Source of the DNA: Podarcis bocagei
Taxonomy: Eukaryota
Direction: 5' to 3' (one strand)
DNA length: 64,000 nucleotides
Assembly: GCA_964188305.1 (NCBI GenBank)
Contig: OZ076886.1
The position numbers and the translations under genes were made by a program. The first letter of the stretch is position 1. The number at the start of each line of letters is the position of its first letter. Below, one piece after another: positions 5,609 through 64,000 of this stretch. A model generated the notes under the pieces. The model was given only the letters and a program-made list of their open reading frames with translations. It searched no databases and was not told the origin of the DNA.

Positions 5609-5850
5609 CAGTGGTACCTCGGGTTAAGTACTTAATTCGTTCTGGAGGTCCGTTCTTAACCTGAAAGTGTTCTTAACCTGAGACACTACTTTAGCTAATG
5701 GAGTCTCCTGCTGCCGCTGTGCCGCCAAAGCACGGTTTCTGTTCTCATCCTGAAGCAAAGTTCCTAACCCGAGGTACTATTTCTGGGTTAGCAGAGTCTG
5801 TAACATGAAGCGTATGTAACCTGAAGTGTATGTAACCCGAGGTACCACTG
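5609..5850 (+). mobile_element. Tc1/mariner-superfamily MITE (family A)
   Basis: TIRs CAGTGGTACCTCGGGTT / AACCCGAGGTACCACTG with TA on both sides. Near-identical copies at 10044, 42714 and 60351. Confidence 0.9.
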
Positions 5851-9849: not shown

Positions 9850-10043
9850 ATTATTTTTCTAGAATTGAGGAAGGAAGCCCATTGATTACGAGAAGATATA
9901 AAACGGTGAGAGTCGCTTCCAAGTCAACAAGTGGAGGATCAAACTGCCATTGTTATATTTACTGAAATTTGTGGGACTTCTGATTTGCATAGGATCATAA
10001 TGTAAAGCAACCTTCGTCAGTACCAGCTAGCCCAACTGTGCTA

Positions 10044-10269
10044 CAGTGATACCTTGGGTTCAGTACTTAATTCGTTCTGGAGGTCCGTTCTTAACCTGAA
10101 ACTGTTCTTAACCTGAAGCACCACTTTTGCTAATGGGGCCTCCTCCTGCTGCTGCACTGCTGGAGCCCGATTTCTGTTCTTATCTTGACGCAAAGTTCTT
10201 AACCTGAAGCACTATTTCTGGGTTAGCGGAGTCTGTAACCTGAAGCGTATGTAACCCGAAGTACCACTA
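10044..10269 (+). mobile_element. Tc1/mariner MITE (family A)
   Basis: Slightly mutated TIRs cagtgatacctt / gtaccacta, TA flanks, internal sequence matches the 5609 copy. Confidence 0.88.
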
Positions 10270-11605
10270 TATATATATGGTGCCGATGGAATTTTGTAGG
10301 CACCAGATTTAGGAAGGCTGCTGTAAAGCCTAAGATTGGGCAGAGATTCTACAGGCATAATCGAGAAGTACTTTAACATCTGAAGCCTGTTGTTGCTGTT
10401 GCTTAAAATCACATGGAATGCAAACCCGGCTCATAGAGTACAACTGATTAAAAAATGACTCTCTTCTGATTTCTATCTCATATCAACAGCACACAAAACT
10501 CAAGAGAGGGACTTATAGCTGGCTATTTTTGCATGTCTGCTTAGGAATAATAAACACTGGACAATCTCAGGTAAATGGGCATAAGATTCTGGCCTGATTA
10601 TGTTATATTTGCAAATATTCTAAAAGCACATTAGATTTCCTATTTATTAAACCAGCCCCATTTATATTTTGCTCAAAAATACTAGTACAATGTAGTGACA
10701 GACATCTAACTACCCCAAACTATATGCATTGTGCTTAGCAACATTTGCCAGTTTCGGTGTTTCCTGGGATTTGGCAACTGAGTGGAAGCAGTTTCATCCC
10801 TTTGGTTTTACCAAGCTGAAACACTCCTGCAGCCAGCAACCCCCTGCCTTGCACATTTCCCAGATAATTACAGATTAGAACAGGCTAATTTTTATTTTCG
10901 CAAAGCCGCCGGAGATCTATGTTTGTTATTATTGTCTCCTAGGTTGCCACTTGCATAAATACATATGTAAAGCCCTTTGATCTGCAGGCATAATGACATA
11001 GATTTATCAAATGTTTGCCTTTTTCCATCATTCTTTTTTTTTTTTTTAAAAAGCTTGATTTATTGAGTGCAATCCCTGCCGCCCTCCCTCTCTTGAAATA
11101 TGAAGTGTTCATGAATAGCTAAGGTAATATTTAATATCCTCCCAAGAAGCCTTTGCACTTTCTAACAAATGAACTACAACCTAACCAAATGGCTCACATC
11201 TGTTTAGCCTCCTCTCTTTTTAACTAAACAAATTAGCATTAGAATACCTGGGAGACAACATACAAAGTCCCCTTTCTAGATGACAGAACACAGACAATTA
11301 TTAGCAAGGGGAAAACAGTCCTGAAAGACGCCGGCCTGACTTGAGCAGATGTTTTCACATCTCCTGTAGTGCCCCTGAATGAGTTGTACCCCAGCGGACA
11401 CACTGCCCCGGTCTTTTGAAGTGGGCCAGGGAAACCATTCACAGCCCTCTGATGAATGGAAACTTGCTCACTTAAATGTTTCATTTAAAATCCCTCCCTG
11501 CAAGACCAGCATGTTACCTTCAAAACATCAACATCAACAAATCTATTGTTTTTAACTAATTTGTTTTTATTCCTGTGCATTTAATTATTTTAAATGTCGT
11601 AAGTC

Positions 11606-15584: not shown

Positions 15585-15741
15585 GGAATTAGTCCGGCAG
15601 AAGTTATTTCCTTTCAAGAAGGCTGGTTGTCAGAAAAACAAGAGGTGAGCTGTATGCTTCCAGTGAATGGCCAGATTTTGCGCTAGGAGTCACTCCTGGG
15701 CCTACCCAAAACCTTTGAGCCCTTACCCCATGGATTTGACT
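15585..15741. repeat. Direct repeat copy 1 (~160 bp, partner at 16851-17012)
   Basis: Colinear blocks tttcctttcaag, ttgtcagaaaa, gagctgta, cttccagt, cagatttt, ctaggagtca, ctacccaaa, accccatgg, tttgact in both copies. Confidence 0.85.
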
Positions 15742-16850: not shown

Positions 16851-17012
16851 GGAAATTTGCTGGGCATAAGTTTGTTTCCTTTCAAGCAGGCCGATTGTCA
16901 GAAAACCAAGAATTGAGCTGTACACTTCCAGTCAATGGGCAGATTTTTGTTCTAGGAGTCATTCCTGGAGCTACCCAAACTGTTGGGCCCTTCTAACCCC
17001 ATGGCTTTGACT
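16851..17012. repeat. Direct repeat copy 2 (partner at 15585-15741)
   Basis: See copy 1. Confidence 0.85.
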
Positions 17013-17985: not shown

Positions 17986-18392
17986 TCAACTCAAGGATTC
18001 CTTTTCGTTGTCCTTTTTGTACCAAGATTTCTTGCAAGTCAGCATGAGCAAGAGGAGCATTGGCAAGTGCCACAAGCTGCAGAAAAACAACTTCCGGGAG
18101 CTGCCACGGTCAGCGTCTCTGTAGAAACGAAAGCCGAGGTAGGAAATGTACAGGTTGACGGGAAGAGAAATTATGGGGAAAGTCCACGTGGTGACATCAA
18201 GGATGGGAGCCAGTGATGAAAGTCCAATTAAGGCGAGGCAATGCCGCAGAGCCACCCGCCTGCACATGTCTGGGTGGGTGACAGACATCATGCAGTAGCC
18301 ACCTCTGGAGTAATCTTCGCGGAGCCCCCAGCTGAGTGCATTGAAATGAGGGAACTGCCAGGAGTAGAGAATCCCCCCCAGCAGCAATGCTC
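17986..18392 (-). CDS. COX10: COX10 heme A:farnesyltransferase, terminal coding exon (human exon 7 equivalent)
   Basis: Encodes (G)[40 protein letters not shown]...FFCSLWHLP...SLS-stop (TGA at 17986-17988). Acceptor tttctcttcgtttgcAG ends at 18393; phase matches the upstream exon. Confidence 0.98.
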
Positions 18393-19023
18393 CTGCAAAC
18401 GAAGAGAAATCAAGGCATTAGGGTGTACGCCAGGGCCACTGACACAGAAATCTGGATAACTTGGCTGAAGTTTCTGCGTCTTCATTTCGTACACCCAGTA
18501 AATCACTTGCAGGTGCAGAAGTCTCATTAATATAATCAGCTTGCCCCAAGGCAGTGAAAGGTATACAGGATGGAGCTGTGTGGAACAGTTTACTCGACTC
18601 TCCACATAAACTCCAAATACCCTTTTCAGATGCAGGAGTTGCTAAATGTTACTCTTAAAAAAAGATGCTTCTATCATTTTATCATTTTTGGAGTAAGAAC
18701 ACTTGCAAAAGGCTCAGAACCCAAGCAATGTATGTGATACTTCCAGGGGATGCAGGGATGTTTTTTGCATTCCTTGTCCAACCTGTTTACTTCTAGTGCA
18801 TTTCCGGCAAGTCATACATACACAATTTAATCACACTTCTCATCTACAATTTTGAATTCGGCACTGTTTGTATTTCCTCCCACACAATTATATGTTTGCA
18901 GAAAGCAAGAAACTGAGGCTTTCAGAACCAAAAACAGTGCCTGAGGCCTCATCTGGAGACAATAAAAAGATGATGATTTGGGGACAGGGCCCCAGCTAGG
19001 ACTAACTGACTATAACTTCTTGA

Positions 19024-29065: not shown

Positions 29066-29901
29066 GGAACTCTTTTTTGCTTTTACCACTTGGCCACCTC
29101 ACTGCTTAGCTCTAATGCAAGTTTAATTATGAGCTAGTTAAAAAGTACTGGTTCTAATAGAGCACACTTTTCTCATCCCTCCACTGTGAGAACAGTCAAT
29201 TTATTCCTACTCTCTGCCATTGTTTTGATCCTAAGTGCTAGTAGCCTGGCTCCTTTTTGGTTCAAGCGGAACCTGTCCCTTTTGTATACGCTTGGCTTAT
29301 TACAAAACCTTCTCCAGTGCCTAAGAAGTCAAAAGCTGTCCTTTGACACTGCAATCTTAGGCATGCATTGAAATGCCTCAGCTTTGCCTGTCTACCTGGC
29401 ACTGCAAATAGGGCAGGTAGAATTCTGGAGGAAGCAATTCTGAATTTCAGCTTCTTGCTTACCCACCTAAAGTTTGCTTCCAATACTGCACAACTACATT
29501 TCCCCATTTCACTGGTGCTGACGTGCATCATGACTGTCATCTTCACTCTGACGGTATCTACCAGTCTAACTAGATGAAACGTGACTTCTACAACCTTTGC
29601 ACCAGGTAGGCAAGTCATTATGCAGTCTACACACCCCTGTTGGCCTATGACTGAACTGAATGGGTCCTGAACCTAAGACAGTCTTGGTTTTTTTTACTGC
29701 AAAATGCCAAGTCAGTGGAAGAGAGAGTCATGCAGTACACAGTGAAATATGCAGATCCTAGATAATGCGAATGATACTAATGGGCATTGGTTAAAAGGAC
29801 ATCTCTCTATTGGGAATGAAGTCATTCAATTGGCCCTAAGAGGAAGACACTCAATTCTCTTCCTCTTCATGGTCCCATTTCCCCCCCAGAGTAATTCTCA
29901 C

Positions 29902-30134
29902 CTGCATCCAGACTGCCGGTTGCTGCTGTCCAACCCATAATTGGGGGAATAGCACCAACCACAGCTCCTACCCATGTATTGACAATGCTAATTCTTTTCA
30001 GCGGTGTGTAACAGCATGTGTACAGGATGATGTTGAAGGCTCCCAGGGCTGCAGTAAGAGGATTTACTCCGAAGGTGAGCAGAGCTATTCCTGGAACAGC
30101 ACAGGAGGCAGCGAAAGACACAGCAAGCAAAGGG
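29902..30134 (-). CDS. COX10: COX10 penultimate coding exon (human exon 6 equivalent, 233 bp)
   Basis: (S)[77 protein letters not shown](G). Acceptor ttttacAG at 30135-30136, donor GTGAG at 29901. Confidence 0.98.
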
Positions 30135-31533
30135 CTGTAAAAAAGAAAGAAAGAAAGAAACAAGAAAATGTAAAAATATGTTAGTGAAAGGATCTGAGGG
30201 CAGATTTTTATTACTGTTACCTTTTTATCCAATGCTTTCCTGATAATTCTTTTTTATTAAGAAATCTTAAATCGGGCAACAGTGATAACCACAGAATAAA
30301 TGTACATTTAGCAAACACCTACTAGAGCATAACTTCTTCTTCACTGGTGTACAGAGAACAATCAGCAAATTTGACCAGCAGGCAAAACAGGTCAGGTGCA
30401 GTCCAATTCAGACTGGTCTTGACTTAGTTTTTGTCTTCTCGCTCCTGCCAGGGGATGTTGAGGGAATTTGAGGAAGCTATATAGGCAGCGGAGCTTCCCT
30501 TCCTGGGAATTTAGGCAGGTGTGTATGCAAGTTGCCATTAGGCATGTTAAAGCTAAACATTCACCTAGAGACAGACACACAACAACTATTACATTGTTTA
30601 TAGCATAGTGAAAGAAACATGCCTACATATTACCCAAGCTTTAATTACACAATGTAATACTTTCAACAGAAATTTGTGTTCAAAATTTATTGCCCTGATT
30701 TAGCAGAATTTATCGGAATCCTAGAAGCTTAAACTATGGGTTTCACTAAAGTTCCAGATCTGGCTACGTCAACTCTTGACAGTGGGGAAGAAACTATTTT
30801 TAATAAAGCATCTAAATGTTTGGTGTAGATTTTTATAGCCCCACACAGACCAGTCACCTCATAGTGTTTTATACACAATTGCAAAATAAGCCTAAGCATG
30901 GATGTGCACGGATCGTGTTAGAATGCGGAGAAGGAATAAATGTCTGCCTTCAATTTAACTTTTAATTAAATGGACCAGGCCAACAATTTGATAAGCTGGA
31001 ACATGATTTTACCAGCTTTACAAACCCAATTGTGGATTTTGCCGATTTAATTTAGTGGAATGCAATGTTTATCAGATTTTTCTCACAAGCTTCTGAGCCA
31101 AGAAAAAATGTTCTTTTGAATACATGCAGCTTTCAGTGAACCCATTCAAGCACTGATCTTGTAACACTTGGACCTATATTTACACAACAACATTAGTTAA
31201 GAAGTGACAGAGTTTTGTCATGTGAATCTAGCACCCTGGAAATGGAGGCAAGCTCATCACTTGATCACTTGGCTCAAGTATCTGTGTAAAGATAGCTGAA
31301 TGTACTGATGATGAAGTTCAGAGGGAAGGGAAGAGAAAAAGACAGGAATTTTGTTACCACTTCAGATGAGCTATAAAGGATGCTGTACTCTGAACATTGT
31401 TGAAACAGAAAATAGCAAAAACAGGACACTGAAACATTTTTTAAAAGCATGTTCCTCAATTGTTCAGTGACACTTCTGAAACTTTTTTTTTTTTTGAAGC
31501 AGACAGTAAGTTCCCCCCTTTTCAATTTTCATG

Positions 31534-35274: not shown

Positions 35275-35516
35275 CAGTGGTACCTCGTGTTGCGAACCGT
35301 CCCCCTTACGAATTCTTTGGGTTACGTGCTCCGCTAACCCGGAAGTAGATGCCCCTTGTTGTGAACTTTGCCCTGGGATGCGAGCGGAAATTGTGCTCCG
35401 GCAGCGCGGCAGCAGCAGGAGGCACCATTAGGGAAAGAGTGCCTCATGTTACGAGCAGTTTCCGGTTACGAACGGACCTCCGGAATGGATTAAGTTCGCA
35501 CCCGGAGGTACCACTG
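35275..35516 (-). mobile_element. Tc1/mariner MITE, sister subfamily of family A
   Basis: CAGTGGTACCTC / GAGGTACCACTG TIRs, TA on the right, left flank is a (CCTT)n tract. Shares ggaggtccgttc with family A in reverse orientation. Confidence 0.85.
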
Positions 35517-37506
35517 TACTTTTCGGTTGCAGGTACACCAGCAATGAAACACTTTTCTCCCCCAAAGCTATAGTTTCATTTTTGCTGCTGACAATGGGAA
35601 CAATGTTAAATTCACTTTGCTTTCATTATGTTCTGCGCCAACAGGTAAGTGGGAGCATGACAGTAAAGGTGAGATGGATGCTCCCCAAGACAGGAATTTC
35701 ATCTGCGTACAACACTGTCAAAACAGTTTATTGTAATAAAAAGAGTCATTGTGAGCACGTTTTTTAAAATGTCAACACTGCACTGATTAGGAAAGGCAGA
35801 ATCACCAAACAAGTTGTTGTGGAGACAGAACATGAATGAAAGATAGAAGCCTTAATGATGCTGGAAAGGTTTTCAATTTGATGATTCATTTGAACAATGT
35901 ATTCACATATTGGTTTCTGGGGCAGAAGTGTTAGGCATATAACCTTCAATTAGTTATAAATGCAAACAGACTTCACAAGCCTATTTTCCCCCTTGTCAAC
36001 ATTGTCTCATATAATGCTGTTCAGACTTGAAAGGCTGGGTCCCTCCTACAGTTTCAGCTACATTCACGTAAGCAAAGCTAAACCACATTAAGTACATCTG
36101 TAGGGGATGTTTGGGCATAATTACCACACCACTGTACTGTTCACACTTGCAGAGCGGTGTTGTGGACAAGTTTTGAAAGCTCCAAGATCTTTAGAAACAA
36201 CTTTTCCCAAGGTACCATTGTGTCCTCTGCTGAAAGCAAAGACCTGCATCTTTGCTGTGCTCTCAATGCATTAAGTATGCAGTTGCTCTAGAGCTCTAGA
36301 CACCTTCTCCACAGCAGGTCCATGGATGGTGAAACTTCAGTAATTTCTACCGATAACTGATGCCTTTACTTTTAGAAGTCATATAGGTATCGTATTATTT
36401 CAGATGTATGTATGTTTCTGTACTTAAACCTAAAGGCATTTGTGAGAGAAAAGCATGTCCATTTCCATGGGGGTTCCCCCCCTTATTTCCACTTCTTACC
36501 ACACTCAGCATCACTCTGGAGGGTCTTCTAATTCTCAATAACATTTTTTAAGTCCCCCCCCCCGGGTCTACACTGGGAAGGGGGAGATGAGAAAGCCCTG
36601 ATCTATGAGCAGATGTCCACCCACATATCCAACTCCAGAATTTTATTATCTAAACTTTTTTTATAAGGCACCAGTCCTCATGACCAAGGAAGGCTATTTA
36701 AAGACCTAAAGCAAATATACAATGACCCCTAATTTTCAAAATTTATGACTTTTATGATTTTGCACAATTACAGTTAGTAACATCAGGGTCTTTGCCACCC
36801 AAGCCATATAGAACACTCGCCTACAGTACAAGGAAACACTTCCTGAAGTAACCGAATTGTTCAAATTTCAGAGGGAGATAGGCATCCACAATGAGGTGGA
36901 ATGGACTGAGAGGGAGAACCTTACCAGTCTCAACCTTTGGTAGAAATCAATATAGGAGTACTTTTGGCTATGCTAGGGTAATCTTTCCCATATCAAAATG
37001 CAACCAGGGCAGTACCCTGTCACTCATTAATTTACAACACAAATGGCTCTTGTGCTTTGCCTGGTACTGATTATCCCACCAAGTGCATACAACTACCTTT
37101 TAAAAGAACACACACCTGGCATCTATGGCCATTTTGCTAACAAATAAAAATCCCTTCCAGTAGGCACCTATATCCTTTGTTTTATAAAAATTAAAACTGC
37201 CTCTTGGACCCCTGGAGATAAGTTCTGCTGGCAGGCACTCAGTCTGACTCTTGAAACTCTTTGTGCCAGTACCACCTGCGGATGCACTACTGTGGTGTAT
37301 CACAAGTCTGCCATCACAAGTTCAAGCATGCATGAATCTAACACACCTGAACCTACTGTCTTGAGAAATATTGTATCACCCATGTGGTTGGAAGGTCATC
37401 TCTGGTGCTGCTGAGTGGGGAAAATGTTTCCCTGAACTGCAGAGTTTCATGGTTAGAGTTACATTTTAAGGTCTAGTGTGTTTCTCCTGCTTTTCCTTCA
37501 TGGTTT

Positions 37507-42095: not shown

Positions 42096-42713
42096 TTTGA
42101 TTGCATTACTGTATTGAAATAAGATCTGAGTGCAAATGGTACTGAAGTTTCTCAGAAGGTCAATTTTACTTCATACCTTTTGTGTCAAAAGGAAGTTTCC
42201 CCTCCCTGCCAAAAGGATTCTTTGGGGTGGGGTGGGGAGTCTGCCAAAGGCCAATTCTCTTCCCTCTCAGGCCCCAGGCTGCATGCTGCTTTCTGCTGCC
42301 AAGGATATTCTCTGGCAGCATGCATATGCCAGCCTTATCTTCATCCATTATTACTAACCTAACATCCTACATATACTATTTGTAAATGCATTCTCTGACT
42401 GCCCATCCTTATGTGGCCAAAATGGTACCATCCATACACATGAGGGAAATTACAGTGGAAAGCCCAAGACTTGCAGGAAAGCCCAAGACTTGCATTGTGG
42501 GGTTTATTTTTTAAATGAAAAAAAAAAAAAATCTCCCCGAAAGTGGGGTGAGGGAGAAAATCTCTAAAACAGGCCGATGGTAACTGAGTGTACTTAGGAA
42601 GTAAAAAATGCTGACTTGACTGCTGGAGAGAGAAAAAAAATGAGGGTGAATAGAAAAATCATAGCTGCTTGGCTGAAACAAGGAACAGAAGCACTTCACC
42701 AAGAAACAGTGTA

Positions 42714-42939
42714 CAGTGGTACCTCGGGTTAAGTACTTAATTCGTTCGGGAGGTCCGTTCTTAACCCGACACTGTTCTTAACCTGAAGCACCACTTTAGC
42801 TAATGGGGCCTCCCGCTGCCGCCGCGCCGCCAGAGCATGATTTCTGTTCTCAGCCTGAAGCAAAGTTCTTAACCTGAAGCACTATTTCTGGGTTAGCGGA
42901 GTCTGTAACCTGAAGCATATGTAACCTGAGGTACCACTG
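42714..42939 (+). mobile_element. Tc1/mariner MITE (family A, CpG-retaining copy)
   Basis: TIRs cagtggtacctcgggtt / aacctgaggtaccactg, TA flanks. Confidence 0.9.
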
Positions 42940-45900
42940 TATAGCAGGCCCCACTTGTTACTGTAACATAGTATTCAAAGCTGCCCATCATCTGTTTTAA
43001 ATATATAAAAATACCAATACATTATTGTTTTGGGTTTGAATACTTCTTTCTGCTTCCCAATAGTTTTGCTTCCTCTGCTACCCTTTCCCCATTTAGGTTC
43101 TTATAGTGTCTGCATATAGCACACTAACTTTTGAAGCCAAAGGCTGGCCTATCACCATCTTCAGGTTCACAGTAATAGCTGCAGACCCTCTTAAATTCTT
43201 ATGCAGAAAACCTTGAACTGAGCAGCCCATTAGAAATTCATAATGAAGGCAAACTAGCAAATAAGTTAAAACCCAAATTCCACTGCACGGACAGGAAAAG
43301 GCCCAGGGTCCCCTTTCAGCAGGATTTATAGCACAATATTCACTGTGACTTTATCAAGAAGATTCCTATAAAATGTGTGAGAGGGCTCTTTGTGTATCTT
43401 AGCCTCTGGAATGCAAACTGTGCAGCAACGGCTATTCTAGCAATGCCTAATTAAAGTGTAAGCTCTGGTATCTGACTTGCCAAGTTGATAATGTGTAAGC
43501 TGTCCCTTTTTTAAAGGCCTTATAAACTCAACCATTTATAGAAGAAATGCACTTTTTACGTGACTTACTGTAAACAGAACTCAAGGTGCAAGCCATTTAC
43601 TATCCCTGGCAGTTCGGTAATGGACTTGCTGAGTGGTGTCATTTCTGAAACTACTTGGCACATGTTGAATAACGGGGCTGCTGTGGTTAAGTAAGATAAG
43701 GCCCCACTATTAAAAACAGAACTGAGTGCTAGGGAGTTGGATTGTCTTAAAACAAAATGTACAAACACAAATCTGAATAAATTTGACAGACTCCATAAGG
43801 GCTAAACACTGAGAAAATGGCAGGCTTATCCCAGAGACAAGATGTATTGCTTCACAAGGCAGGGTGGATATATTCTTTATAAAAATAATCTGGTAGCCCA
43901 TAAGAAACATCATTCTTGATGTGTTTTTCCCACTATTAGTTACACTCTGCTTTTGGATATACACCTCTGCAGTCGCAACACACCTACATTCTCATCTGAA
44001 CAATGCATATAGGCAGATTTATATGGGCAGTTATGAACAAGGGCAGAAATAAAGACAATGTTCAAATGAGACAGCTTATCTTAGTTGCTTATCCCTATTT
44101 CCTTGGCTCTAGTCTTCAGTTCTTCTTGGAGGCTCCCAAAACCCACTTATAGGATATATCCTGGGGATATTGCAGGCAACAGTCTTTCTTGTCACTCAGA
44201 ATTCTCCCCGGTTCTGAAAACACAGACAGTTCAACTGAAGTGTTTCACTATCCCTAGGAGGACCTCCTGGTGACAAATTGTCACATACTGCATTTAAGAA
44301 ACAGCTCAACCATCTGGGGGGGAAGGTTTGCCTCTGTAATTATTAGGACTTGACTTTCTGGAAAGCCGAATTGTTTAGTGACTCTGTTTCAGCAATAAAA
44401 GTGGGCAGTGTGTTTTGCTGAAAATCCTACAGAACTATATAGTAATCTACGCTAACAAGTATAAATGAAATGTTCTGCCAGTACTCTGTGCCTTTCTACT
44501 CCCGTACACTTTCACCACAGATGTATGTTCATCCAGATTAGATTTGCAAGGGGCTTGGATATCAAGGCCACTGGGTATTTGCATGTTTACCATACTAGCT
44601 AATTATTTTGGTTTTGTGCCACAACAGACTATACTTCCCCATGGCTAGCTCAGAAGAAAAGGAAGTTATCTGCCATTATTTCTTTTTTTAAAAGAAAAAA
44701 ATGGAATTGGCATAAATGGTACATCCCCAAAGGTCTGTTCATATTGGAGGTCATAATCAGAAGGATTATGGTATACAATTGCTGTACTTCTTCAAATGAA
44801 CAGGGCCCTACCTCCTACTGCGCAGCTGACACAGGAGGCTAAGACAACTCCATTAGGAGTGCATATCGCTACTCAGCAGTGGTCCTCAGAAGCAGATGGA
44901 GGGCTATTTACTCAAATGCACCATGACTCCTGGCTTATACATGAGCATCTGGGATGTTTCCTAACGTGATGTGATGCACAATGCACTCAAATTTTTCAAC
45001 TGTCCCACATGCAATTAAAGGCCCTGATAAATAATTCCATGGCAAAGGCCTCACAGCTGAATTGAAAAGCAGCAAGGCGTGAGGGGTCAAATGTTTCCGC
45101 GGGATTTCTATTTAACAAACAGAACTGCTTATAAAGGAATGTCTCTACTGCGCTGCTGCAGAGTTTTTTCACACAGCACAACCAACAGAAACAGGGAGCT
45201 GAGTAGCTGGCAACTACTGCCGTCTCCATTTAAAGTGCAATAATTTTGTATCTTGCATGGAGAATCAAAGAAATACACAAACAAACACAAATCCACACCC
45301 AGCCACACATATGTATCTTAAAAACAGTTATCAGGTTCTGTTTATGAACATAAAACAGGAACTCTCATTGACCATAAAGGATGTAATCAACACTATGTGT
45401 GGATACATAGCTACTGCCATTCCAATCCCTTTGGGAAAGCAAGATAGTAAGCATTACAGCAATCCATTAGTTCATCCTTTGATGTGGGTTTTATTCTCTT
45501 TAAACTGTGTTCTAGCCTTAAGGATTTTTCCTTCATTGCCTGTAAATGCAGCTATCTGAAGCAGGGGAGTGAATAAGCGTCCTGCTGCTTAAAATGCAAG
45601 GGCAACATTTTCACGAGTAATTGGACATGTCAAAATATAAAACAGCCTTATTAAAATTTCTTGTTTACAGCACTCAGGCAATGCCAGCTTCCCACTCTTC
45701 AGAGGAAATGCATGGAAGAAAAGGAACTCAGCAGGAAAGAACACACTTGTTTTCATACAGTTATATTAAAAGTTGCATACCTCCAGGATAAACATTATTT
45801 GAAAAGAACACTGCTGTGGTGTCGCTTTAGAACTATGTTGTTTTCAAACGGGAACATCTCTTCCTCCCCACATCACGTTAAACAAAAGCATTTACAACTT

Positions 45901-49400: not shown

Positions 49401-51384
49401 GAAAACCCAATCCTATGTACATACCAATGTTTCCCACAGCAAATAGGTGAACTGTGGACAAACAGATGTGCACTTAAATACTTGTGTTCATATCACTCTG
49501 GCCGAACATGGGACTGCTGTACCCTTTATGCTCTCTAGTATTTTTTGTGGGAAACACTGTCGTATATATCGAACAGGTTTTTCATGTAAAGTACGGTGCT
49601 GCTCTGAAGACAACACAGATGTGGGAGAAAAGCTTTAATTTTACTTGGGGGTGAGAAAGGAGGAGGAGTTTAAAGTTTACACACACACTGACCTAAGCAA
49701 ATTCAAGACACCTCCATTCAATTGAATTTTGGCTCAGCCTAGTTTTTGGCTCACTGTGTGCTCAACAGATGTTCTCATTAGAATATTCCCCATGATGTTT
49801 TTAAAATAAAATTAACTGAACTTATAAATCTGTAATTAGCACCATCTTACAGAACAAATCAGAACAAGTTTACCAAAGTACTCTATTTACAATGAGAGTG
49901 AGTTTACCCCCAGGGCTTGCTTTACTATTTTGTTTCAATTTTCATGTAATTTCATCCATCACTTTTTTTCAATCCTCCAAAGATGATGGATAAAACACAG
50001 AAATAAATAGGACCAACTGTTCACAGATGCCTAAGGGAAAACATAATTTTGTTATAAATAATCCTTGGCACAAATCATGGAAATGCTATCTGAAAATTGT
50101 TTGTTGAATAGTTTATGAATACGGGCTTTAGCTTCAAGTTTGCAAATAAGGTGTAGTGCTCCCCAACCTTCGTTAAGTTGGAACCCAATCCTATACAAAA
50201 AACTGAACAGATATACAAACAGAAATCAAGGTTGCTTTAAGTTTCTGCTCAAACAGGAGCCCCATGGGATACTGCCTTTTATTTGTATGTATACATGGAG
50301 CAGAAAGCATGCACAAAAGGTGACACATGTTTCAGAATTCTTCTTGTAAAACATCATAAGAAGTTTGATTCCTGCTTTATGATTTGTCATAAAGGGGAAA
50401 AACTAAGAAATACAAACTGATAACGATTTATACAGAATGAAAGAATGGGCATTTCATATATATAATGTTTAGTGTGTTTTTTCCTAGGTCTAATCAAAAA
50501 TAGCAAACCCAACCATCTAATTATTTTCAGGAAAAACAAAGGTTAGACGTTACAGTGAAACAAACAAAAAATATACAAAGGAGCTCCATCACTAAGTGTG
50601 ATAAGTGGTGGTATTAGGATATGGAGAGAATGTAGGGCAAAACCCTGTTCCAGAAGGTGCCAGAAGGGGCATTTTCCCAAGCACTTCTAGCTGTTGTCAT
50701 ATTAGGCTGCTTTGGCTCCTGTTTGTGAGACAAGCCAAGTTGTTAAAATGACTGACATGCCCTTAGACACTCTGGATAATGGATCTTCCCAAGGATGTCC
50801 TGTTTTTCCACAACGGTTCTAATCTGTTTGATTGTGATTCTGTGGTAGCTTCCTTTAAAAACATGCTGTGGCTGATCCCTCCTCCCCCCCCCCCGCAACT
50901 CTGTATTAACAGTATTTGGTGCAAAACCTTTTGCGAATGGACCTTCTTTGTCAGTGTGAACTCTCTTAGGAGAATCTGCAATTCACAATATGGGAATTGC
51001 AATTTTTATATTATATATATTTCATCTATCAGACATAGATGGGGGGGAAAAACCACCTGTAGGGTTGTTTTTTACTGTGTCCATGCTGGGAACTACAGAT
51101 TTTCTGTAGGGAGTTCACAGTGACAAATTAAGCGATGCTGTTATAAACGACATAACTTGTCTTACAAAATTATATATAGAATTTGATCTGAGTTTAAAAC
51201 ATACCTGCCATGAAAGAGATTCACCCATGTTTTAATAAGGCCAATTCCCATTTTCCAATAAGCCTTTGAATGCAACGTTTTTATAACATTTGAAGTCTTC
51301 TCAATATTCTTGCATTTTCCTCATAAACAGATTAGGTATTTGCCCTTAGTTATTGCTGCTGTACTGCACAACACTTAACATAGC

Positions 51385-52158
51385 TGTCAGGGGCTCAGGG
51401 ACAGAGGCACAGGGGAGAGAGGAAATGGAGAGCGAAGGGGAAGAATCTGAGGGCAGCGTAGGGGAGGATGGCAGTGACCCGAGAGATTCCATGAGCTTCT
51501 CCAGCGAATCAGAAGATTCCCAGAAGGAGGCGCCGATGGTCAGGGCGAGGGGGGTCCCAGGGGGGACACACCAGGAACAAGGGGCCAGCGGGGACTCCCA
51601 AAGCAGCAGCTGGAAATCAGGACCAGCTTCCCCACCAGAACATAGTGGGGGGGAAGAATCCCATGTGTCAGGGCCAGCGTCTCCTCCAGCAGGGAGAGGA
51701 GATGAGTCAGGGCTGGCCACGCCTCTATCGGAGAGTGGAGGAACGAGCAGTGTAACGGTCAGGAGGAAGGTTGCCGGCTGGGCGCGCGTGCCAAGTTCAA
51801 ATGTACAGGCGCGCGGGACAGCAGAAAACCCGGATTGGGAACCAGGTCCCAAAGCCCGCCGGAAGCAGGGGGAAGACTCAGGGGACTCAGCGTCAGAAGA
51901 GTCTAGGAAGGGCGAGACCCCAGCTGACAGGCGGAGCCAGAGGAGGAAAGAGCAAAGGAAGAGGTGGAGCAAGGCTAGAGTCTTAAACTGGTGTCTGGGG
52001 GGAGAAGATTCAGACGGAGCTTCAGCGGTCTAGAGTTTCAGACGTAGAGCTGCACGCAGCGGCTGTGGAAGTGAAAATGAACTTCAATAAAGACTTTTGT
52101 ATATAACAACGGACTGGCGTTGGTCCTTTGTGAGCTGGGACCTCGGGCAGCTCTGACA
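51385..52158 (+). mobile_element. Solo LTR (774 bp), probably Gypsy/Metaviridae-type
   Basis: TGTCAG...CTGACA termini, perfect 5-bp TSD ATAGC at 51380-51384 and 52159-52163, AATAAA at 52086-52091, GC/CpG-rich against AT-rich flanks, no internal gag/pol. Confidence 0.9.
51425..52033 (+). CDS. Hypothetical 202-aa low-complexity protein encoded inside the LTR (acidic Ser-rich N-part, basic C-part)
   Basis: ATG in strong Kozak context (GAAATGG) and uninterrupted frame to TAG. No recognisable domain; coding status unproven. Confidence 0.35.
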   Translation: MESEGEESEGSVGEDGSDPRDSMSFSSESEDSQKEAPMVRARGVPGGTHQEQGASGDSQSSSWKSGPASPPEHSGGEESHVSGPASPPAGRGDESGLATPLSESGGTSSVTVRRKVAGWARVPSSNVQARGTAENPDWEPGPKARRKQGEDSGDSASEESRKGETPADRRSQRRKEQRKRWSKARVLNWCLGGEDSDGASAV

Positions 52159-53430
52159 ATAGCGGTTATTATTTAATAATTTCTATACTTTTTCTAAGTG
52201 GTTTACAACTATAATTTTTAAAAATAAAACTATGCTTATTGTGCTACCATCCTGTTGCAGAACCAGCAGAACTAGCAATTCTAAAAACTGCCTAGTAAGC
52301 ACGGTGAGGGCAGGAGAGGACTTTAATCAAAGAAATACAGTAAAAGTAGCTAAAAATGCTACTAAACTGCATCCCAACAATATTATCTGCACTTGTAGTA
52401 TATCCTGTAGTTAACTTAAATAATAATGTATTATTTATATACAACTTGAATGTTGTCTTAATGTATAAGCTGATAGAAATAATGAGCTTAAACTAAATAT
52501 TGCAGAGCAGTGAGGTTCCTTTGTCAGATACTGGAACTAAACTAAGCTGCATAACAGGAAGTGCTGGAACTGATAGACTAGAACAAATTTATTTCTCCAG
52601 AACGTCTTTCTACTTAGTTTTCTTTTTTGTGTGCATGTTATTTTGTAATGTAATTTTAAAAATGAACATAATAATTTATCATTTTTAATGTCTGACCTTC
52701 AATTTAGATGGAAAGCTGTTAATCATGGATTTAAATTAACATTCATTTTAAATAAATAAATAAATACATCCAAATTCTACATCAAGGGAACATGGCCTCT
52801 TTGTCTGAAACGGATTAAACAAGCTAGAAAAGAACACACATATTGAAGTCCATGCAAGTTATTCTGACCGCAATGCAGGCTTTGGAATTCTTGGCAAGAA
52901 ATGTGGTGGTAGAAGGTGGGCAAGGTGGGAAGTAATGGTGGGCAAGTGACCTGTCATGTATCAAACTCACAAGTTCCATCCTGTCCCTTTTGCTCAAAGG
53001 AAAATCAAATAGAAGGCTAACTTGGACCTTTTAAAGACTTTAGAAATGTTTGTTGTTCTTTTTAAAGAATTATTGTGGGAGATCCATAATGATTTTCTTG
53101 GCAGAGCCACTCACTTCTAAAAGTACGGTACATGCTTCACAATTGTCTATGATATTTCACAGGAACACCTGGAATCTTGCGATTCTTAATTTCTACATCT
53201 ATAAAAGCCCTTGCTGAATATGATGAGAGGGCAAGCCAATATGTTTTCCATGTGGCATTGTAAGCTTTCAAAATCTTCAAAGCACAAAACGGCAACGCTT
53301 TCACAGTCTTTTGTTCTGAAGTTGACATATTTGCTTATCTAAACATAAGGAAGGGCAGTAAGCTGGGAAATATATAAAAAGAACAATGAGATTTATTACT
53401 CATTTTGGAGAGCAGGTGTGTGCAGCCTTA

Positions 53431-53544
<114 letters not shown>

Positions 53545-56500: not shown

Positions 56501-57889
56501 TGATAAGTGTTTTGTGACAATTAAATGTTTTTAATGCAAGAAATGACATCAACAATGTCTTTACAAAATCCTGAAAAACCTGTTTTCTATGTATTTTTTT
56601 TATTATAAAGGGACAATATTTTCCTACCACCATCCAGGTGTAAGGTAGCGGTTGAGGTTGGCATCTGTCTTTCTCAGGAGACAATGGAGGAGCGTGCCTT
56701 TGGGGTGAAGTCAAACTGTTGGAAGGTTACAGCGCCTGTTACGGCTGTAGGGATGTGATTGTCTAACATAAGCTAATGAAGTAAAAAGATGTCCAGTTTC
56801 TGTATTAGGTGGTTGCGGAATCAAAATAAGCCAGGAAAACCCACCAGATAATTGAATGTTACCTCTGTAAAAAAAAGTTTTGATTTGAGAGTTAATCACT
56901 TCTGCTAAGCAATTGGCAGCCAGGCACTTAATTAAGACTGTGTGGGCAACAAAAGACGGAAGAGAGAGCTACGTAAAGTACTTCTATGTAGGGAAAGAAG
57001 TGTGAAAACTGCATATAGATTGTTGCAATCAATGATCAAGTATGTGCATTCATAGCATTTACTACATGCTGGCTTCCTTGTACATAAACAATGAATGAGC
57101 AAACTGTGCAACTGTCCCAAGCAATATTTCACATTATCCCTCTAAGACAGTGCTTTCCATATAAGTGAAACTGCATAGAGAGCAAAGATACAGCTGGTGT
57201 GACTGTCCTCAAAGTCTGTTCCTAGAACACTCCAGCATAAACTAGTGATAATGTGAATTCACAGAGAAGCTGATAACTTTACTCAGAACAGCCCAAGGTC
57301 ACCAAAGCTGTTCAAACGGTACATTGTTTGCTTTTACTATTGTGTACAATTGGCTACCACGCTTTTCCAAATATCTAAAGAACTAAAGTTAGAAAATAAC
57401 TCTTCTATATTAAAAGACAAATTCAGTTCACGTCGATGCATAGCTTCTCAATTCACTATTGCAAGGGTATGATATGAAAAAAAATTTAACGTCTCACTTG
57501 CAATTATCTTTCTCCCAGTTTTGAAAAAAAGGAATTGAGCAACCAGAACATTCACAGACTTTAAAAACCATCCTTGATGTAAACTCACTCAGGCTGGAAC
57601 CCCAGATTGGGTGAGAAAATGGTTTGTAAGAACATAGGACACAGAAAAGATTTACTGGAAGGATCAGCAACATGGTGCCTTTTGGTGCATATGTACCAAG
57701 AGAAGCCTTCCCTGACATCCACTTACCTGTTGCCCCCATTGAAATTAAACTTGAAGGAAGCCTTTTATTGTGGCCAATAGCGAAGGCTAAGGTGTGTGCT
57801 TGGTTATAGTATAAGTGTGGTGCCCATGACAATTTATCCAGTTTGCAACTGTACCCATGAGCCCTGATTCCTACTTTACTAAGAAAACA

Positions 57890-58063
57890 AAAAAATTCCT
57901 TCCTGTAGCACCTTAAAGACCAACTAAGTTAGTTCTTGGTATAAGCTTTCGTGTGCATGCACACTAAAGCTTATACCAAGAACTAACTTAGTTGGTCTTT
58001 AAGGTGCTACAGGAAGGAATTTTTTTATTTTGACTATGGCAGACCAACACGGCTACCCATCTG
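57890..58063. mobile_element. Penelope-like element terminal fragment in inverted configuration, with partial hammerhead ribozyme
   Basis: Palindrome 57884-58031, terminal tail gactatggcagaccaacacggctac, flanking duplication TTACTAAGAAAACA at 57876-57889 and 58064-58077. Confidence 0.75.
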
Positions 58064-60350
58064 TTACTAAGAAAACATTAAGGATATTTTATGCTTCCTG
58101 AAACAGAAACAGTGCATTTTGGAAATTCTGCTTTGTAATCCTAGTTTGGCAAAGTACCAGTCACTTTTTATTATTAAATTTGTGGACCAGAATATTTTCT
58201 GTTATAATTCTGAAACAAATATTGATTCAGAAAGGACTACTATTAAAACCTACTCTAAAAATTAACAAATGCCGATGTCAATTATTTTTCTAAAAAACCA
58301 AATCTTTATTCACTGAGGCACAGGGATATTTGTTTTAGTGTTTAAAAAGAGCATCTCCAAAATAATAAATTACAGTTTAAAACTACAATTGTAAAACCTT
58401 AATCCTTGGTTTAAACTGACTAACTCTCAATAGGTTTCTGTCCTCTCTTCCAGAGAGTGAAATAATTCTCTCTGCATTCTATGCTCAGACCTAAAGTGTC
58501 AAAATGGCACCACCCAACCACAAGAGGGAGAACTGAGGAAGACCCAGGGTTTATCTAAGTATTTATTTCTCACCTGCCTTTTACCACAAGGTTCTAGTAG
58601 ATATGTAATTTGAAATAATATTTCCCTCTGAAAATTTTATGTTCATCTGCACAGTCATGTTTATACAATTCAATACTTTCTCCCAAAACTTAGTAAGCAA
58701 ATGGCAAGGTCAACAAAAACATGAACACTCCACATTGCAACATTTTCTTGTGTTCCAAAAACAATAGGATAATCTGGTGGAGCTCTATTGACCCTGTATA
58801 CCATTAATAGTTAATTCTTTCTATCTATCAGAGAGCAGAGCCAGAGTAAATCTAGAAACATCCCACACAATTTTAACAGAAGAAAGGCTTGGGAGCCTTT
58901 GGGGAGTACGGTAAAGGGAGGAGATCTTTTGATTTCAGAAAGGGCACATAGCACCTGTCTGTCTTGAAGATGTGAACATGAAGCAGAACAAATGGGATTA
59001 GAAGCTGTTCTTTTGGAATCTTATAAGCAGCTAAAACATATTGCTCCATGAATCTGGATTGCTACTTACAGATCCCTTCATAATTTCCCACTTCAAATTA
59101 GTGTCAAATTAAAAACAAGACCACACTATGTTATTCTGTAAAACAGTGTCACATTGCTAATTTTGTGCATAGTGGATGCTTGTTCACTTGAGCTACAAAG
59201 CCACGTAGTCACATTCTGAAGATGATAATAGCTACAAAAAAGTGTTGATACTGTCAATTCAAAAGGAAATGCTCTCATATAGGAGTACTGAAAAAGTCAC
59301 AGACTTTAATTAACACATTTTCTGTCCCAAAAGCATATTGATATTCACTGTGGCCTCAGCTTTTACAAAATTCAAGGAATCACAACCTGCTATTTTGCCA
59401 ACAGTAAGATCAGTAACACCTAACTCACTGCATACTATGACTTTGTGGTTGTCGCATCTTGCTTTATCAGGCTAAAATGTCACAATAAAGGACAAGCAGG
59501 GCCTTGTGCCTACAGTAAGGGACATAAATTAAATTCTACAACATACTGTTCAATAATAAATAATAAAAACTGCAACAACTCTACATAGATGCAGATCAAT
59601 CCCTTCCACAAAAGAGGCAAATGCATTTATTTTCCTGGCAGGCATATCAAGCCCTGCTTTGGTCTCCACCTCTATGTTTTGTTCATTATAAGGTATATTT
59701 TGATTACACAGGGCAGCAGGAAATTAAATAAAGCAAAACGCCATGCAAATAAAAGGAACAGAAAAGTTAGAAGCCATTTCCTTTCCCAAATTATCTAATT
59801 GCTTTCAACAGAGTGGCTGACTTTACAAGTCAACGCATCTGTACACATATACTGTATTTTTCACTTTAAAACTCAAGTGTTCTATGGCAGTTGGGGGGCT
59901 TATTTCTCTCTTAAATGTTTGGGTCACACCACTTCACTGGAACTGCCCCAAAAAGGCAAATTCCATCAACTGAGACCTCATCTGTTTTAACCATCTCTGC
60001 TGTCACCATGCAGTAGCATCTTGCAACTATCAGATCTATATCAAGCCATAGGGAAGACAGACATGCTGACGATTATTTCAACAACTCTGAAATGTCAAAG
60101 TGATATGGCTGGAATTCAACAGGGCCTTTAAACTAATGGTCATGACAGAAACAAAACAGGGACTGCCCAGAAAGTATGTGACAGTTAAAACTACTTTTCA
60201 TTCCACCAGCACATAAGGAAATCTGTACAGCTCCTGCGACACATATCCAGTACCCCATTATAAAGCCTGCAAGGTATAAATATTAATTAGAGGTAAAGCA
60301 TGCCATTTTAGTGACACAGAAGTATACTGAACATGAATAAAAGAAGTATA

Positions 60351-60560
60351 CAGTGATACCTCGGATTACAGACGCTTCAGGTTACAGACTCTGCTAACCC
60401 AGAAATAGTACCTCGGGTTAAGAACTTTGCTTCAGGATGAGAACAGAAATCGCACTGTGGCAGTGGAAGGCCCCATTAGCTAAAGTGGTACCTCAGGTTA
60501 AGAACAGTTTCACGTTAAGAATGCCAGAACGAATTAAGTTCTTAACCCGAGGTACCACTG
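60351..60560 (-). mobile_element. Tc1/mariner MITE (family A, reverse orientation, internally shortened)
   Basis: cagtgatacctcgg / cccgaggtaccactg TIRs, TA flanks, reverse complement of the 42714 copy. Confidence 0.88.
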
Positions 60561-61350
60561 TACTGAACATGAATAAAAGATATATACGTTTTCTAAACCA
60601 TGCAGAGTCCAATAGGAGGTCATGTGAAGATAAAGAAATGTACCTATTGGCACTCTGTAACAGTGTTTAAATGACTGCTTCTCCAGCAAAAGCAAAGGAG
60701 TGTGGCAAAACATTTTTGCTAATACTCCATTCTCCCCTTGTCACAAAATGTCAAGCTTTGCTATATTCTCACCTCCCCAATGTGTGACTTAATTAATGAC
60801 CTCACAGATGCTCAATAAGATAGAAGGCTACAGATCACAGTTATGCCATGTTTAGATCTATTTGTGGCATTAATATAAACTGTGATGAAAGGATTAATGT
60901 CTCAATTAGGATAACTTACAGATTAAATTAATGTGTGCTGGGGCAGAGGGAAACAGTTTTCTATTAACCAGACAAAGATCCACAACATTTTACCAAATAA
61001 GGAGCATTCTGGAGGGAGGGAGGGAGGGAGGAAGGACAGGGAGAACACAGAGGTTACTCTTGTACCGAGTTCAGATGCTGTTTCTGTTTTTCTGTGACTT
61101 TAAACTCAAATGGTAAATCTGAGTTCCTGGGAAGAGATGGGATTCTATTCAGTGTTAGTTATACTCAAAGCATACCTATTTAAATTCATTTACATACACA
61201 GTTCCATTAATTTCAATAGGTCTAACTGGATACAAGCCATGATTTCCTCCAGTAAGTATTTGTATTGAAATATTGGGTGGATAACTATTGGAAGTCTGCA
61301 CCATCACTCTGATGAGCTAGACTGTTCCCTACTCTGCATAATTTTAAGGC

Positions 61351-62643: not shown

Positions 62644-64000
62644 TTATTATTATTTATATCCTGCCCTCCCCAGCCGAAGCCGGGCTCAGGGCGGCTAACA
62701 ACAATAAAATAATACAACATTCTAAAATAATTTCATTATAAAATTAATTCAAATCAAATTAATGGCAACCATTGGGCTAGAGTTCTGTGAAGATCGCCAA
62801 AAGGAGGGAGTCAGGCTGTGCCCTGGCCAAAGGCCTGGTGGAACAGCTCTGCCTTGCAGGCCCTGAGAAAAGATGTCAAGTCGCGCAGGGCCCTAGTCTC
62901 TTGTGACAGAGCGTTCCACCAGATCGGAGCCACAGCCAAAAAAGGCCTGGCTCTGGTTGAGGCCAGCCTAACCTCTCTGTGGCCTGGGTCCTCCAAGATG
63001 TTTTTGTTTGAAGACTGTAAGTTCCTCTGTGGGACATACCAGGAGAGGTGGTCCCGTAGGTACGAGGGTCCTAGGCAATAACGGGCTTTAAAGGTTAAAA
63101 CCAGCACCTTAAACCTGATCCTGTACTCCACCGGGAGCCAGTGCAGCTGGTATAGCACTGGGTGAATGTGATCTCACAGCGAGGACCCCGTAAGGAGTCT
63201 CGCCGTAGCATTCTGCACCCGCTGGAGTTTCTGGGTCAGTCTCAAGGGCAGCTCCATGTACAGCGAGTTACAATAATCCAGTCTGGAGGTGACCGTTGCG
63301 TGGATCACAGTGGCTAGGTCAGGGCAAGAGAGGTAAGGAGCCAACTGCTTAGCTTGGCAAAGATGAAAAAATGCCACCTTTGTTATAGATGCAATCTGCA
63401 CCTCCATGGAAAGGGAGGTGTCGAAGATTACACCCAAACTCTTAACGGACGGTGCTGGCACTAATTGCGACCCCGCAAGAGATGGGAGTTGCACCCCCAA
63501 TCCCATATCGTCCCAACCCAGCCAAAGGACCTCTGTCTTCGAAGGATTTAACTTCAACCGGCTCCCACATAACCATCCAGCCACAGCTTCCAAACATCTG
63601 ATCAGTGTGTCTGGGGCCGAGTCAGGATGGCCATCCATCAACAGATAGAGTCGGGTGTCATCAGCATACAGATGGCAGCCCAACCCAAAACTCCAGAAAA
63701 GCTGGGCGAGGGGGCGCATAAAGATGTTGAAAAGCATCGGGGAGAGTATCACACCCTGAGGCACTCCACACACCAAGGAGTGGCCTGATGACAGTTCCAC
63801 CCCAAGCGCCACCCTCTGTCCCTGACCAGAGAGAAACGAGTGCAGCCATTGACGGACTGTGCCCTGGATCCCCACATCGGCAAGGCGGTGGTCCAGGAGT
63901 TCGTGATCGACCATGTCGAAGGCTGCTGACAGGTCAAGAAGAGTCAGCAGCCCCGACCCGCCTCGATCCAGCTACCTGCAGAGATCATCTGTTAGGGTGA
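62644..64000 (-). mobile_element. L2-clade LINE, RT domain to 3' end, running off the window
   Basis: ORF2 motifs DLSAAFDMVDH, GVPQGVILSPMLFNIFM, YADDT, KLNPSKTE, SRLDYCNSL, LHWLPVEYRIRFK. One premature stop at 63174-63176; (TAA)n tail near 62644. Confidence 0.92.

What the first reader, a model, noticed from the sequence alone, without database searches (positions are those of the whole stretch)
51385..52158. Young solo LTR almost entirely occupied by a 202-codon ORF
Seen: perfect TG..CA LTR with 5-bp TSD; the + frame is open from the LTR's first base to 52033, with a Kozak-optimal ATG at 51425. The product is bipartite: acidic/Ser-rich N-half with duplicated SGPASPP motifs, then a basic NLS-like segment (PKARRK, RRSQRRKEQRKRW) and a short hydrophobic tail (RVLNWCLG). 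Known: some retroviruses encode accessory proteins in U3 (MMTV sag, lentiviral nef). Inference: this may be an uncharacterised LTR-encoded accessory or chromatin-binding protein of a lizard LTR retrotransposon family.
Basis: partly seen in the sequence, partly recalled or inferred. Interest (0 to 1): 0.7.

Follow-up and report, generated by a model that had tools for sequence, protein, structure and literature searches.

The report
Integrase tail encoded inside the LTR
The long reading frame in this lone retrotransposon end-repeat is not a separate gene but the last ~215 codons of the element's Pol polyprotein, which in full-length copies runs on into the repeat and is conserved as protein, likely serving as a nuclear-import and chromatin-tethering tail of the integrase, while this lone copy is likely silent.

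Summary
In detail: a 774-bp TG..CA solo LTR, ATAGC target-site duplication, 202-codon ATG frame (0.3% of shuffles). The interpretation needs correcting. The parent is a self-priming Ty3/Gypsy chromovirus (Tf1/sushi type). In full-length copies pol reads through the polypurine tract into the 3' LTR and ends at this same stop, so the 'LTR ORF' is the C-terminal tail of Pol, behind integrase, SH3, a degenerate chromodomain and an acidic linker. The ATG is not kept in sister subfamilies, and the inferred transcription start (self-primer, 52013) lies in the last seven codons, so a solo LTR would not make this protein from its own promoter. The tail is under purifying selection: omega 0.29 (LRT p 4e-20); indels between subfamilies are all in frame, while 8 of 9 post-insertion indels are not. 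Distant families (RT ~67% identical) share the layout and a basic R-x-S/G-xxx-hydrophobic-L-x-W end motif. Pol overlapping the 3' LTR is known (plant CRM, pufferfish V-clade1). What I did not find in print is 84% of an LTR coding under selection, and an FxGF motif behind the chromodomain that resembles LEDGF-binding motifs. Function is inferred, not shown.

The parts
51385..52158 (+). Solo LTR of a self-priming Ty3/Gypsy chromovirus (subfamily A, 774-nt variant)
   Evidence: 8 genomic copies carry this variant's junction, none next to a PBS or PPT
51380..51384 (.). Left target-site duplication ATAGC
52159..52163 (.). Right target-site duplication ATAGC
51386..52033 (+). LTR-encoded C-terminal tail of Pol (215 codons plus stop; 84% of the LTR)
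   Evidence: continuous with pol in full-length copies; 84% identical over 203 aligned positions to the end of the L103 Pol frame; omega 0.29
51425..51427 (+). Internal Met codon in good Kozak context, not conserved (Thr in subfamilies B and C)
51617..51688 (+). Two SGPASPP motifs 51 nt apart; a 51-nt block with a third copy, present in most of subfamily A, is absent in this variant
51848..51865 (+). PKARRK basic patch, kept in subfamilies A-C, not in distant families
51929..51991 (+). Arg-rich run plus R-x-S/G-xxx-hydrophobic-L-x-W motif, shared with families ~67% identical in RT
51981..51988 (+). AT-rich TATA-like site (TCTTAAAC, codons V-L-N), 32 nt upstream of the self-primer; promoter role inferred from position
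52013..52022 (+). Self-primer GACGGAGCTT, complementary to the PBS of full-length copies; inferred transcription start and U3/R border
   Evidence: covaries with the PBS across families
52086..52091 (+). AATAAA poly(A) signal
51346..52029 (-). Open antisense frame sharing wobble positions with the sense frame; likely a by-product
53432..53502 (-). Host exon of a UbiA-family gene (COX10 by recall); the LTR lies antisense in the following intron

Best explanation
The frame is the 3' end of the pol gene of a self-priming Ty3/Gypsy chromovirus, left behind in a solo LTR; in full-length elements it encodes a selected, likely disordered C-terminal tail of Pol that likely stays on integrase and likely serves nuclear import and chromatin tethering, and this solo copy is likely not expressed. 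Shown: pol (PR-RT-RH-IN-SH3-chromo-like) crosses the PPT/LTR junction in frame and stops 125-126 nt before the LTR end; the tail is under purifying selection; the PBS is complementary to the LTR at 52013. Inferred: transcription starts at the self-primer, so U3 is transcribed only as the 3' end of the genomic RNA; reverse transcription copies that U3 into both LTRs; LTR-LTR recombination then strands a frame with no promoter upstream of it. Inferred with less confidence (about 0.5): the Arg-rich end motif is an NLS or nucleic-acid/chromatin contact, and the acidic Ser/Pro stretch a phospho-regulated spacer, by analogy to plant CRM and (recalled) Ty1 integrase tails. Confidence in the architecture alone is about 0.93.
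For: Pol frame continuous for 1200 codons or more into the 3' LTR: 21 of 37 resolved B elements (40 sampled), 3 of 8 C, 3 of 11 A (41 examined; two of the three are duplicates of one insertion, and the third, L050, shifts frame near the end). 3' LTR part open in 37 of 37, 6 of 8 and 9 of 11. Pfam domains. Podarcis muralis Pol P0002 (1498 aa) ends with the tail, 61% identity over 93% of the query. Distant families: 12 of 12 resolvable elements (20 fetched) cross the PPT in the same phase with 94-125 LTR codons. GY codon model on 10 copies: LTR tail omega 0.29, p 4e-20; its N-terminal 146 codons, away from the promoter core, also 0.29; internal linker 0.61; RT and IN 0.04-0.06. DNA-only alignments: coding gaps are multiples of 3 in A-B 4 of 4, A-C 2 of 2, B-C 4 of 4 and within subfamilies (51, 3, 12, 39 nt); all R-U5 gaps are 1 nt; third-position excess p 7e-7 for A-B. 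Control: 5' versus 3' LTR differences show 8 of 9 indels frameshifting and positions 24/31/34. Self-primer complement of 10 nt or more in 53 of 58 A-C elements and 10 of 12 distant ones, covarying with the PBS; paired in both MFE and centroid.
Against: No continuous full-length parent of the exact 774-nt variant is in the assembly (8 of 8 solo or truncated), and subfamily A gives only two independent continuous frames. Post-insertion differences give a counting omega of 0.57, not 1 (transition bias is uncorrected), so the neutral baseline for that method is below 1. Within-subfamily third-position excess is not significant (p 0.13-1.0). Some private 1-nt indels lie in G runs and may be assembly errors. 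The fold z-score of the priming region is only -1.65. The tail matches no Pfam or PDB entry, so its function rests on analogy. The L-x-W codons coincide with the TATA position, so part of their conservation may be DNA-level.
Confidence: 0.8

Rival explanations
1. Stand-alone LTR accessory gene (sag/nef-like), translated from ATG 51425 on its own or spliced RNA, possibly also from solo LTRs.
For: Good Kozak context and a 202-codon frame; 19 of the 30 closest copies are open to the same stop; selection on the frame.
Against: In frame with pol in every family examined; ATG absent in B and C and in distant families; inferred start site lies downstream of nearly the whole frame.
Confidence: 0.05
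2. The tail is made as part of Pol but is cut off by the element's protease and acts as a separate accessory protein (anti-silencing factor or particle component).
For: A long, weakly constrained linker (omega 0.61; 115 codons deleted in frame in L103/L111) separates it from integrase; the LTR-coded part is more constrained than the linker.
Against: No cleavage site was identified; the closest precedent (CRM CR motif) is described as the integrase C-terminus (PMC3059260, passages).
Confidence: 0.2
3. The tail has no function of its own: the frame is kept open only because Pol must end cleanly (for example to avoid a long 3' UTR), and residue conservation reflects promoter DNA.
For: Low-complexity S/G/E/R composition; AF2 gives no fold (but the known SH3 part also failed); the end motif overlaps the TATA position and the self-primer.
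Against: omega 0.29 in the upstream 146 codons with a third-position excess; the basic run and motif spacing are kept across RT 67% identity with synonymous codon changes.
Confidence: 0.15
4. The selected product is the antisense frame (hydrophobic Leu/Phe-rich start), which shares wobble positions with the sense frame.
For: Open in A and B and in 11 of 12 distant elements; dN/dS cannot separate the two frames.
Against: First Met at residue 179 of 227; one stop in both C copies checked; open in 8% of synonymous permutations of the sense protein; similar antisense shadows lie over the pol core.
Confidence: 0.04

Closest known systems
Vertebrate V-clade / Tf1-sushi chromoviruses (Sushi-ichi, Amn-san; pufferfish V-clade1)
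   Same: [quoted passage not shown]
   Different: Pol frame here is about 1480-1560 codons (V-clade1: 1119 aa); 204-232 codons lie in the LTR; chromodomain below the Pfam cut-off with the cage Trp replaced by Arg/Lys in A-C. No tree with reference elements was built.
Plant CRM group A centromeric retrotransposons (CR motif)
   Same: [quoted passage not shown]
   Different: CRM uses a tRNA-Met PBS and the CR motif replaces the chromodomain; here a chromo-like domain is retained upstream and priming is self-priming. Sequence likeness to the CR motif was not tested directly; no Pfam hit.
MMTV sag / lentiviral nef (recalled)
   Same: Protein-coding U3; the frame is duplicated into the 5' LTR, where it lies upstream of the start site.
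   Different: Those are separate genes with their own ATG and mRNA; this frame is fused to pol and has no conserved ATG.
Ty1 integrase C-terminal tail (recalled; NLS papers seen only as reference listings)
   Same: Acidic, disordered integrase tail ending in basic clusters.
   Different: Copia superfamily, not LTR-encoded; no homology claimed.
TND-interacting motifs (IWS1, JPO2, KMT2A) that bind LEDGF/HRP2
   Same: Helix + 8-16-residue acidic or Ser/Thr linker + FxGF (PMC9987994 section 6) matches a motif just behind the chromodomain.
   Different: Lies in the internal region, not in this LTR; in A-C the linker is Ser/Thr-rich rather than acidic; resemblance by pattern only.

Membership tests
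Ty3/Gypsy LTR retrotransposon | gag + PR-RT-RH-IN order, TG..CA LTRs, PPT, TSD | tested here: met
Tf1/sushi (V-clade) chromovirus | PBS complementary to the element's own 5' end (self-priming) | tested here: met
   53 of 58 with 10 nt or more, covarying across families; priming itself not assayed
Tf1/sushi (V-clade) chromovirus | Chromodomain at the integrase C-terminus | tested here: inconclusive
   A-C: Pfam Chromo E 0.006-0.059, below cut-off, cage Trp lost; distant relatives E 2e-8 to 2e-12, above cut-off, align column for column; joint profile hits HP1 chromodomains at 1e-9
Tf1/sushi (V-clade) chromovirus | RT phylogeny within the V-clade | not tested
Stand-alone U3 accessory gene (sag/nef type) | Own conserved start codon, separate from pol | tested here: not met
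Stand-alone U3 accessory gene (sag/nef type) | Own subgenomic mRNA | not testable with these tools
   needs stranded reads or CAGE
Plant CRM group A | [quoted passage not shown] | tested here: met
Plant CRM group A | tRNA-Met PBS; CR motif in place of a chromodomain | tested here: not met
   self-complementary PBS; chromo-like domain present
Plant CRM group A | Centromeric targeting | not tested
   copies lie on many contigs, and this one in an intron; no centromere map available
TND-interacting motif (TIM) | Helix + 8-16 aa acidic/phosphorylatable linker + FxGF | tested here: met
   pattern match and conservation (omega 0.13 in A-C; invariant F, F, G across families)
TND-interacting motif (TIM) | Measured binding to a TND | not testable with these tools
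   needs ITC, NMR or pull-down

The most novel reading that the evidence does not exclude
This lizard chromovirus clade has grown a 200-370-residue integrase tail, half or more of it written into the LTR, that retargets integration: an FxGF motif behind the chromodomain mimics host TND-interacting motifs to dock on LEDGF/HRP2 and steer insertion into transcribed gene bodies, as HIV integrase does by another interface, while the LTR-encoded basic end motif supplies nuclear import and a second chromatin contact as the chromodomain's methyl-lysine cage decays.
Probability: 0.2. Interest if true: 0.78.

Novelty: new variant of a known kind. Interest (0 to 1): 0.42.

Why it matters
It explains why thousands of solo LTRs in this genome carry a 200-codon 'gene' and warns against annotating them as host or accessory genes. 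It is also a clean case of triple coding: one stretch serves as protein tail, promoter and self-primer. Vertebrate chromovirus targeting is untested, and this clade offers a defined, selected tail with two candidate motifs (the FxGF motif and the basic L-x-W end) that can be tested as isolated peptides. If the LEDGF link held, it would be a retrotransposon converging on the HIV tethering factor by motif mimicry.

Tried and rejected
Pfam on the ORF and on the end-motif alignment: nothing; PDB by sequence for the end motif: nothing. AlphaFold2 on SH3-to-end with 14 sequences: pLDDT 33, uninformative since even the SH3 failed; no fold search was run on it. Complex prediction of a lacertid LEDGF IBD with the subfamily A FxGF peptide: no verdict (score 0.02, alignments not used, peptide pairs untested for that tool). 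Protein atlas: no answer. Sequencing runs: no RNA holder listed; contigs of four guessed-RNA runs cover the family but cannot show start, strand or level; no empty-site joint in four laid runs, flanks poorly covered. Bacterial promoter scan is irrelevant here. Earlier findings: none. First PPT pattern found only 2 atypical copies. Gao 2008 and Malik and Eickbush 1999 are not held; Butler 2001 was seen only as a reference. The apparent pile-up of subfamily A full-length copies on contig C19 was rejected as a count of insertions: 16 of the sampled loci share one flank.

Full report
OBSERVATION. The element is as described: 51385-52158, TGTCAG...CTGACA, ATAGC duplicated on both sides, 59% GC and strongly purine-rich. 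One + frame is open from the second base to TAG at 52031-52033; from ATG 51425 it gives 202 residues. Of 3000 dinucleotide shuffles, 0.33% give such an ATG frame and 4.5% a stop-free frame of that length on either strand, so length alone is suggestive, not decisive. The LTR lies antisense in a long intron of a UbiA-family gene on the minus strand (exon 53432-53502, further exons near 29870-30253 and 17986-18417; the name COX10 is recalled). The host is likely a lacertid lizard: all named homologues of the tail are from Podarcis.

FAMILY. The genome search gave 3830 first-look candidates, 40 scored. Of the 30 closest, 25 have a perfect 5-bp TSD; most are an 825-nt form with 51 more bases in frame; 19 of 30 are open to the same stop. 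The window's 774-nt variant has 8 copies, none with internal sequence beside it. An LTR-end/PBS junction occurs 2042 times exactly. I sampled 40 of the first listed plus-strand junctions on C1 (sister subfamily B, about 70-75% identical), 40 of 60 junctions of the own subfamily A plus L050, and 14 stretches around a third subfamily C.

THE FRAME IS THE END OF POL. In these elements gag (Ty3 capsid, zinc knuckle) is followed by a pol frame with protease, RT, RNase H, integrase and a Tf2-type SH3. That frame does not stop before the 3' LTR: it crosses the polypurine tract (junction read as M-D|V-R-G) and ends 125-126 nt before the LTR end, at the window's stop. It is continuous for 1200 codons or more in 21 of 37 resolved B elements, 3 of 8 C and 3 of 11 A; the LTR part alone is open in 37, 6 and 9 of these. 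Dropped before the count: 3 B loci with a truncated LTR and 30 A loci without a clean second LTR in range; two of the three A cases are duplicates of one insertion. The window protein is 84% identical to the end of such an A Pol. Independently, the only proteins found by a search for longer homologues were four Podarcis muralis Gypsy Pol entries that carry the tail, in full or in part, at their end (4 hits among 2095 candidates). Two more distant groups in the same genome (RT 66-70% identical; LTRs 434-483 nt) share the layout: 12 of 12 resolvable elements of 20 fetched cross the PPT in the same phase and carry 94-125 codons in the LTR (two have premature stops).

WHERE TRANSCRIPTION LIKELY STARTS. 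The PBS is complementary to the LTR itself: AAGCTCCGTC to GACGGAGCTT in A and B (window 52013-52022), AAGTCCCCTC to GAGGGGACTT in C, and other matched pairs in the distant families; 53 of 58 A-C elements have 10 nt or more of perfect complement at 146-148 nt from the LTR end. The pairing appears in both MFE and centroid folds (z only -1.65). This is the self-priming of Tf1/sushi elements, in which the primer is the 5' end of the mRNA (PMC4600332 and PMC6317226, passages). The start site is therefore inferred at about 52013, with an AT-rich site 32 nt upstream (51981) and AATAAA at 52086. The frame thus lies almost wholly in U3. It would be transcribed only as the 3' end of the genomic RNA, and a solo LTR would not make it from its own promoter.

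SELECTION. A GY codon model on 10 natural copies of A, B and C gives omega 0.06 (RT), 0.04 (IN core), 0.08 (chromo-like), 0.13 (31 codons behind it), 0.61 (internal linker; one copy lacks most of it) and 0.29 for the LTR-coded tail (LRT against 1, p 4e-20), the same in its N-terminal 146 and C-terminal 62 codons. Because protein-guided alignment can bias this, I repeated it on DNA-only alignments: differences by codon position are 0.20/0.26/0.43 for window versus B (p 7e-7), with p 3e-4 and 3e-5 for the other subfamily pairs; every gap in the coding part is a multiple of 3 and every R-U5 gap is 1 nt. The internal control is differences between the two LTRs of one insertion: 8 of 9 indels shift the frame (51 pairs) and substitutions fall 24/31/34 on the three positions. 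Against: the counting omega of those private changes is 0.57, within-subfamily position bias is not significant, and some private indels may be assembly errors. The antisense frame shares wobble positions, but has no Met until residue 179, is broken in C and stays open in 8% of synonymous permutations.

WHAT THE TAIL LIKELY DOES (inferred). It is rich in S, G, E and R and matches nothing in Pfam or PDB; among 1.84 billion representatives the chromodomain-to-end query found 10 proteins, named ones only from Podarcis. What survives across all families is an acidic Ser patch, an Arg-rich run and R-x-S/G-xxx-hydrophobic-L-x-W, then a short Ser/Asp end that overlaps the self-primer. [quoted passage not shown] In A-C the chromodomain scores below the Pfam cut-off and has Arg/Lys at the cage Trp, while the distant families keep a canonical one and have a shorter tail; a trade-off is suggested but not shown. 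Just behind the chromodomain, outside this LTR, all families carry helix-linker-FxGF-like motifs (one in A-C, two in the distant groups) that fit the published TND-interacting motif, whose FxGF part is needed to bind LEDGF and HRP2 (PMC9987994, passages and section 6). I noticed this by recall, and it is a pattern match only.

KNOWN OR NEW. Pol overlapping the LTR is in print for pufferfish V-clade1 (PMC11117352, passages) and plant CRM/Reina, so the principle is known. In ten library searches (listings and abstract starts, plus passages of ten papers, including PMC3601003, PMC2864245, PMC4131045 and PMC9025612) I saw no description of this lizard family's tail, of selection on it, or of an FxGF motif in a retrotransposon integrase. 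Subscription papers (Butler 2001), Repbase reports and all supplements were not seen and may mention the overlap. Verdict: a new variant of a known kind; the solo copy itself is an ordinary, likely inert remnant. Interest 0.42.

Noticed in passing
L209:6944-7150, L223, L228, L050:4555-4662 (internal region of full-length copies): Helix + acidic or Ser/Thr linker + FxGF motifs right behind the chromodomain, one in subfamilies A-C and two in distant families; resemble LEDGF/HRP2-binding TND-interacting motifs; omega 0.13 in A-C.
   Followed up: partly
G000:C19 (96.5 Mb): Holds 50 of 60 subfamily A LTR-PBS junctions and many copies of other families, largely as segmental duplicates (16 sampled loci share one flank); looks like a W-type or other non-recombining chromosome (inference).
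   Followed up: partly
L055-L094 (G000:C1): Subfamily B is very young: LTR pairs 99-100% identical, many 100%; about 2000 LTR-PBS junctions genome-wide, suggesting a recent or ongoing burst.
   Followed up: partly
L031/L032, L034, L036 (G000:C10): Triplicated structure in which a partial LTR, the 3' internal end, a PPT, an LTR, a PBS and gag follow one another: tandem elements sharing an LTR, with internal deletion.
   Followed up: no
L043, L045: Nests of several subfamilies inserted into one another near contig ends and on C19.
   Followed up: no
L050: 5' and 3' LTRs are of different length types (777 and 824 nt) yet share a TSD; possibly a recombinant insertion.
   Followed up: no
window 57884-58031: Near-perfect 148-bp palindrome (74-nt arms, 97% complementary, no spacer).
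   Followed up: no
window 5607-5838, 10042-10273, 42712-42943, 35306-35520, 60347-60565: Five copies of a ~230-nt repeat with inverted ends, likely a non-autonomous DNA transposon (MITE).
   Followed up: no
window 62811-63971 (-): LINE reverse-transcriptase fragment (Pfam RVT_1).
   Followed up: partly
window 15604-15679 and 16872-16947: 76-nt direct repeat, 86% identical, 1268 nt apart, downstream of the host gene's last coding exon.
   Followed up: no
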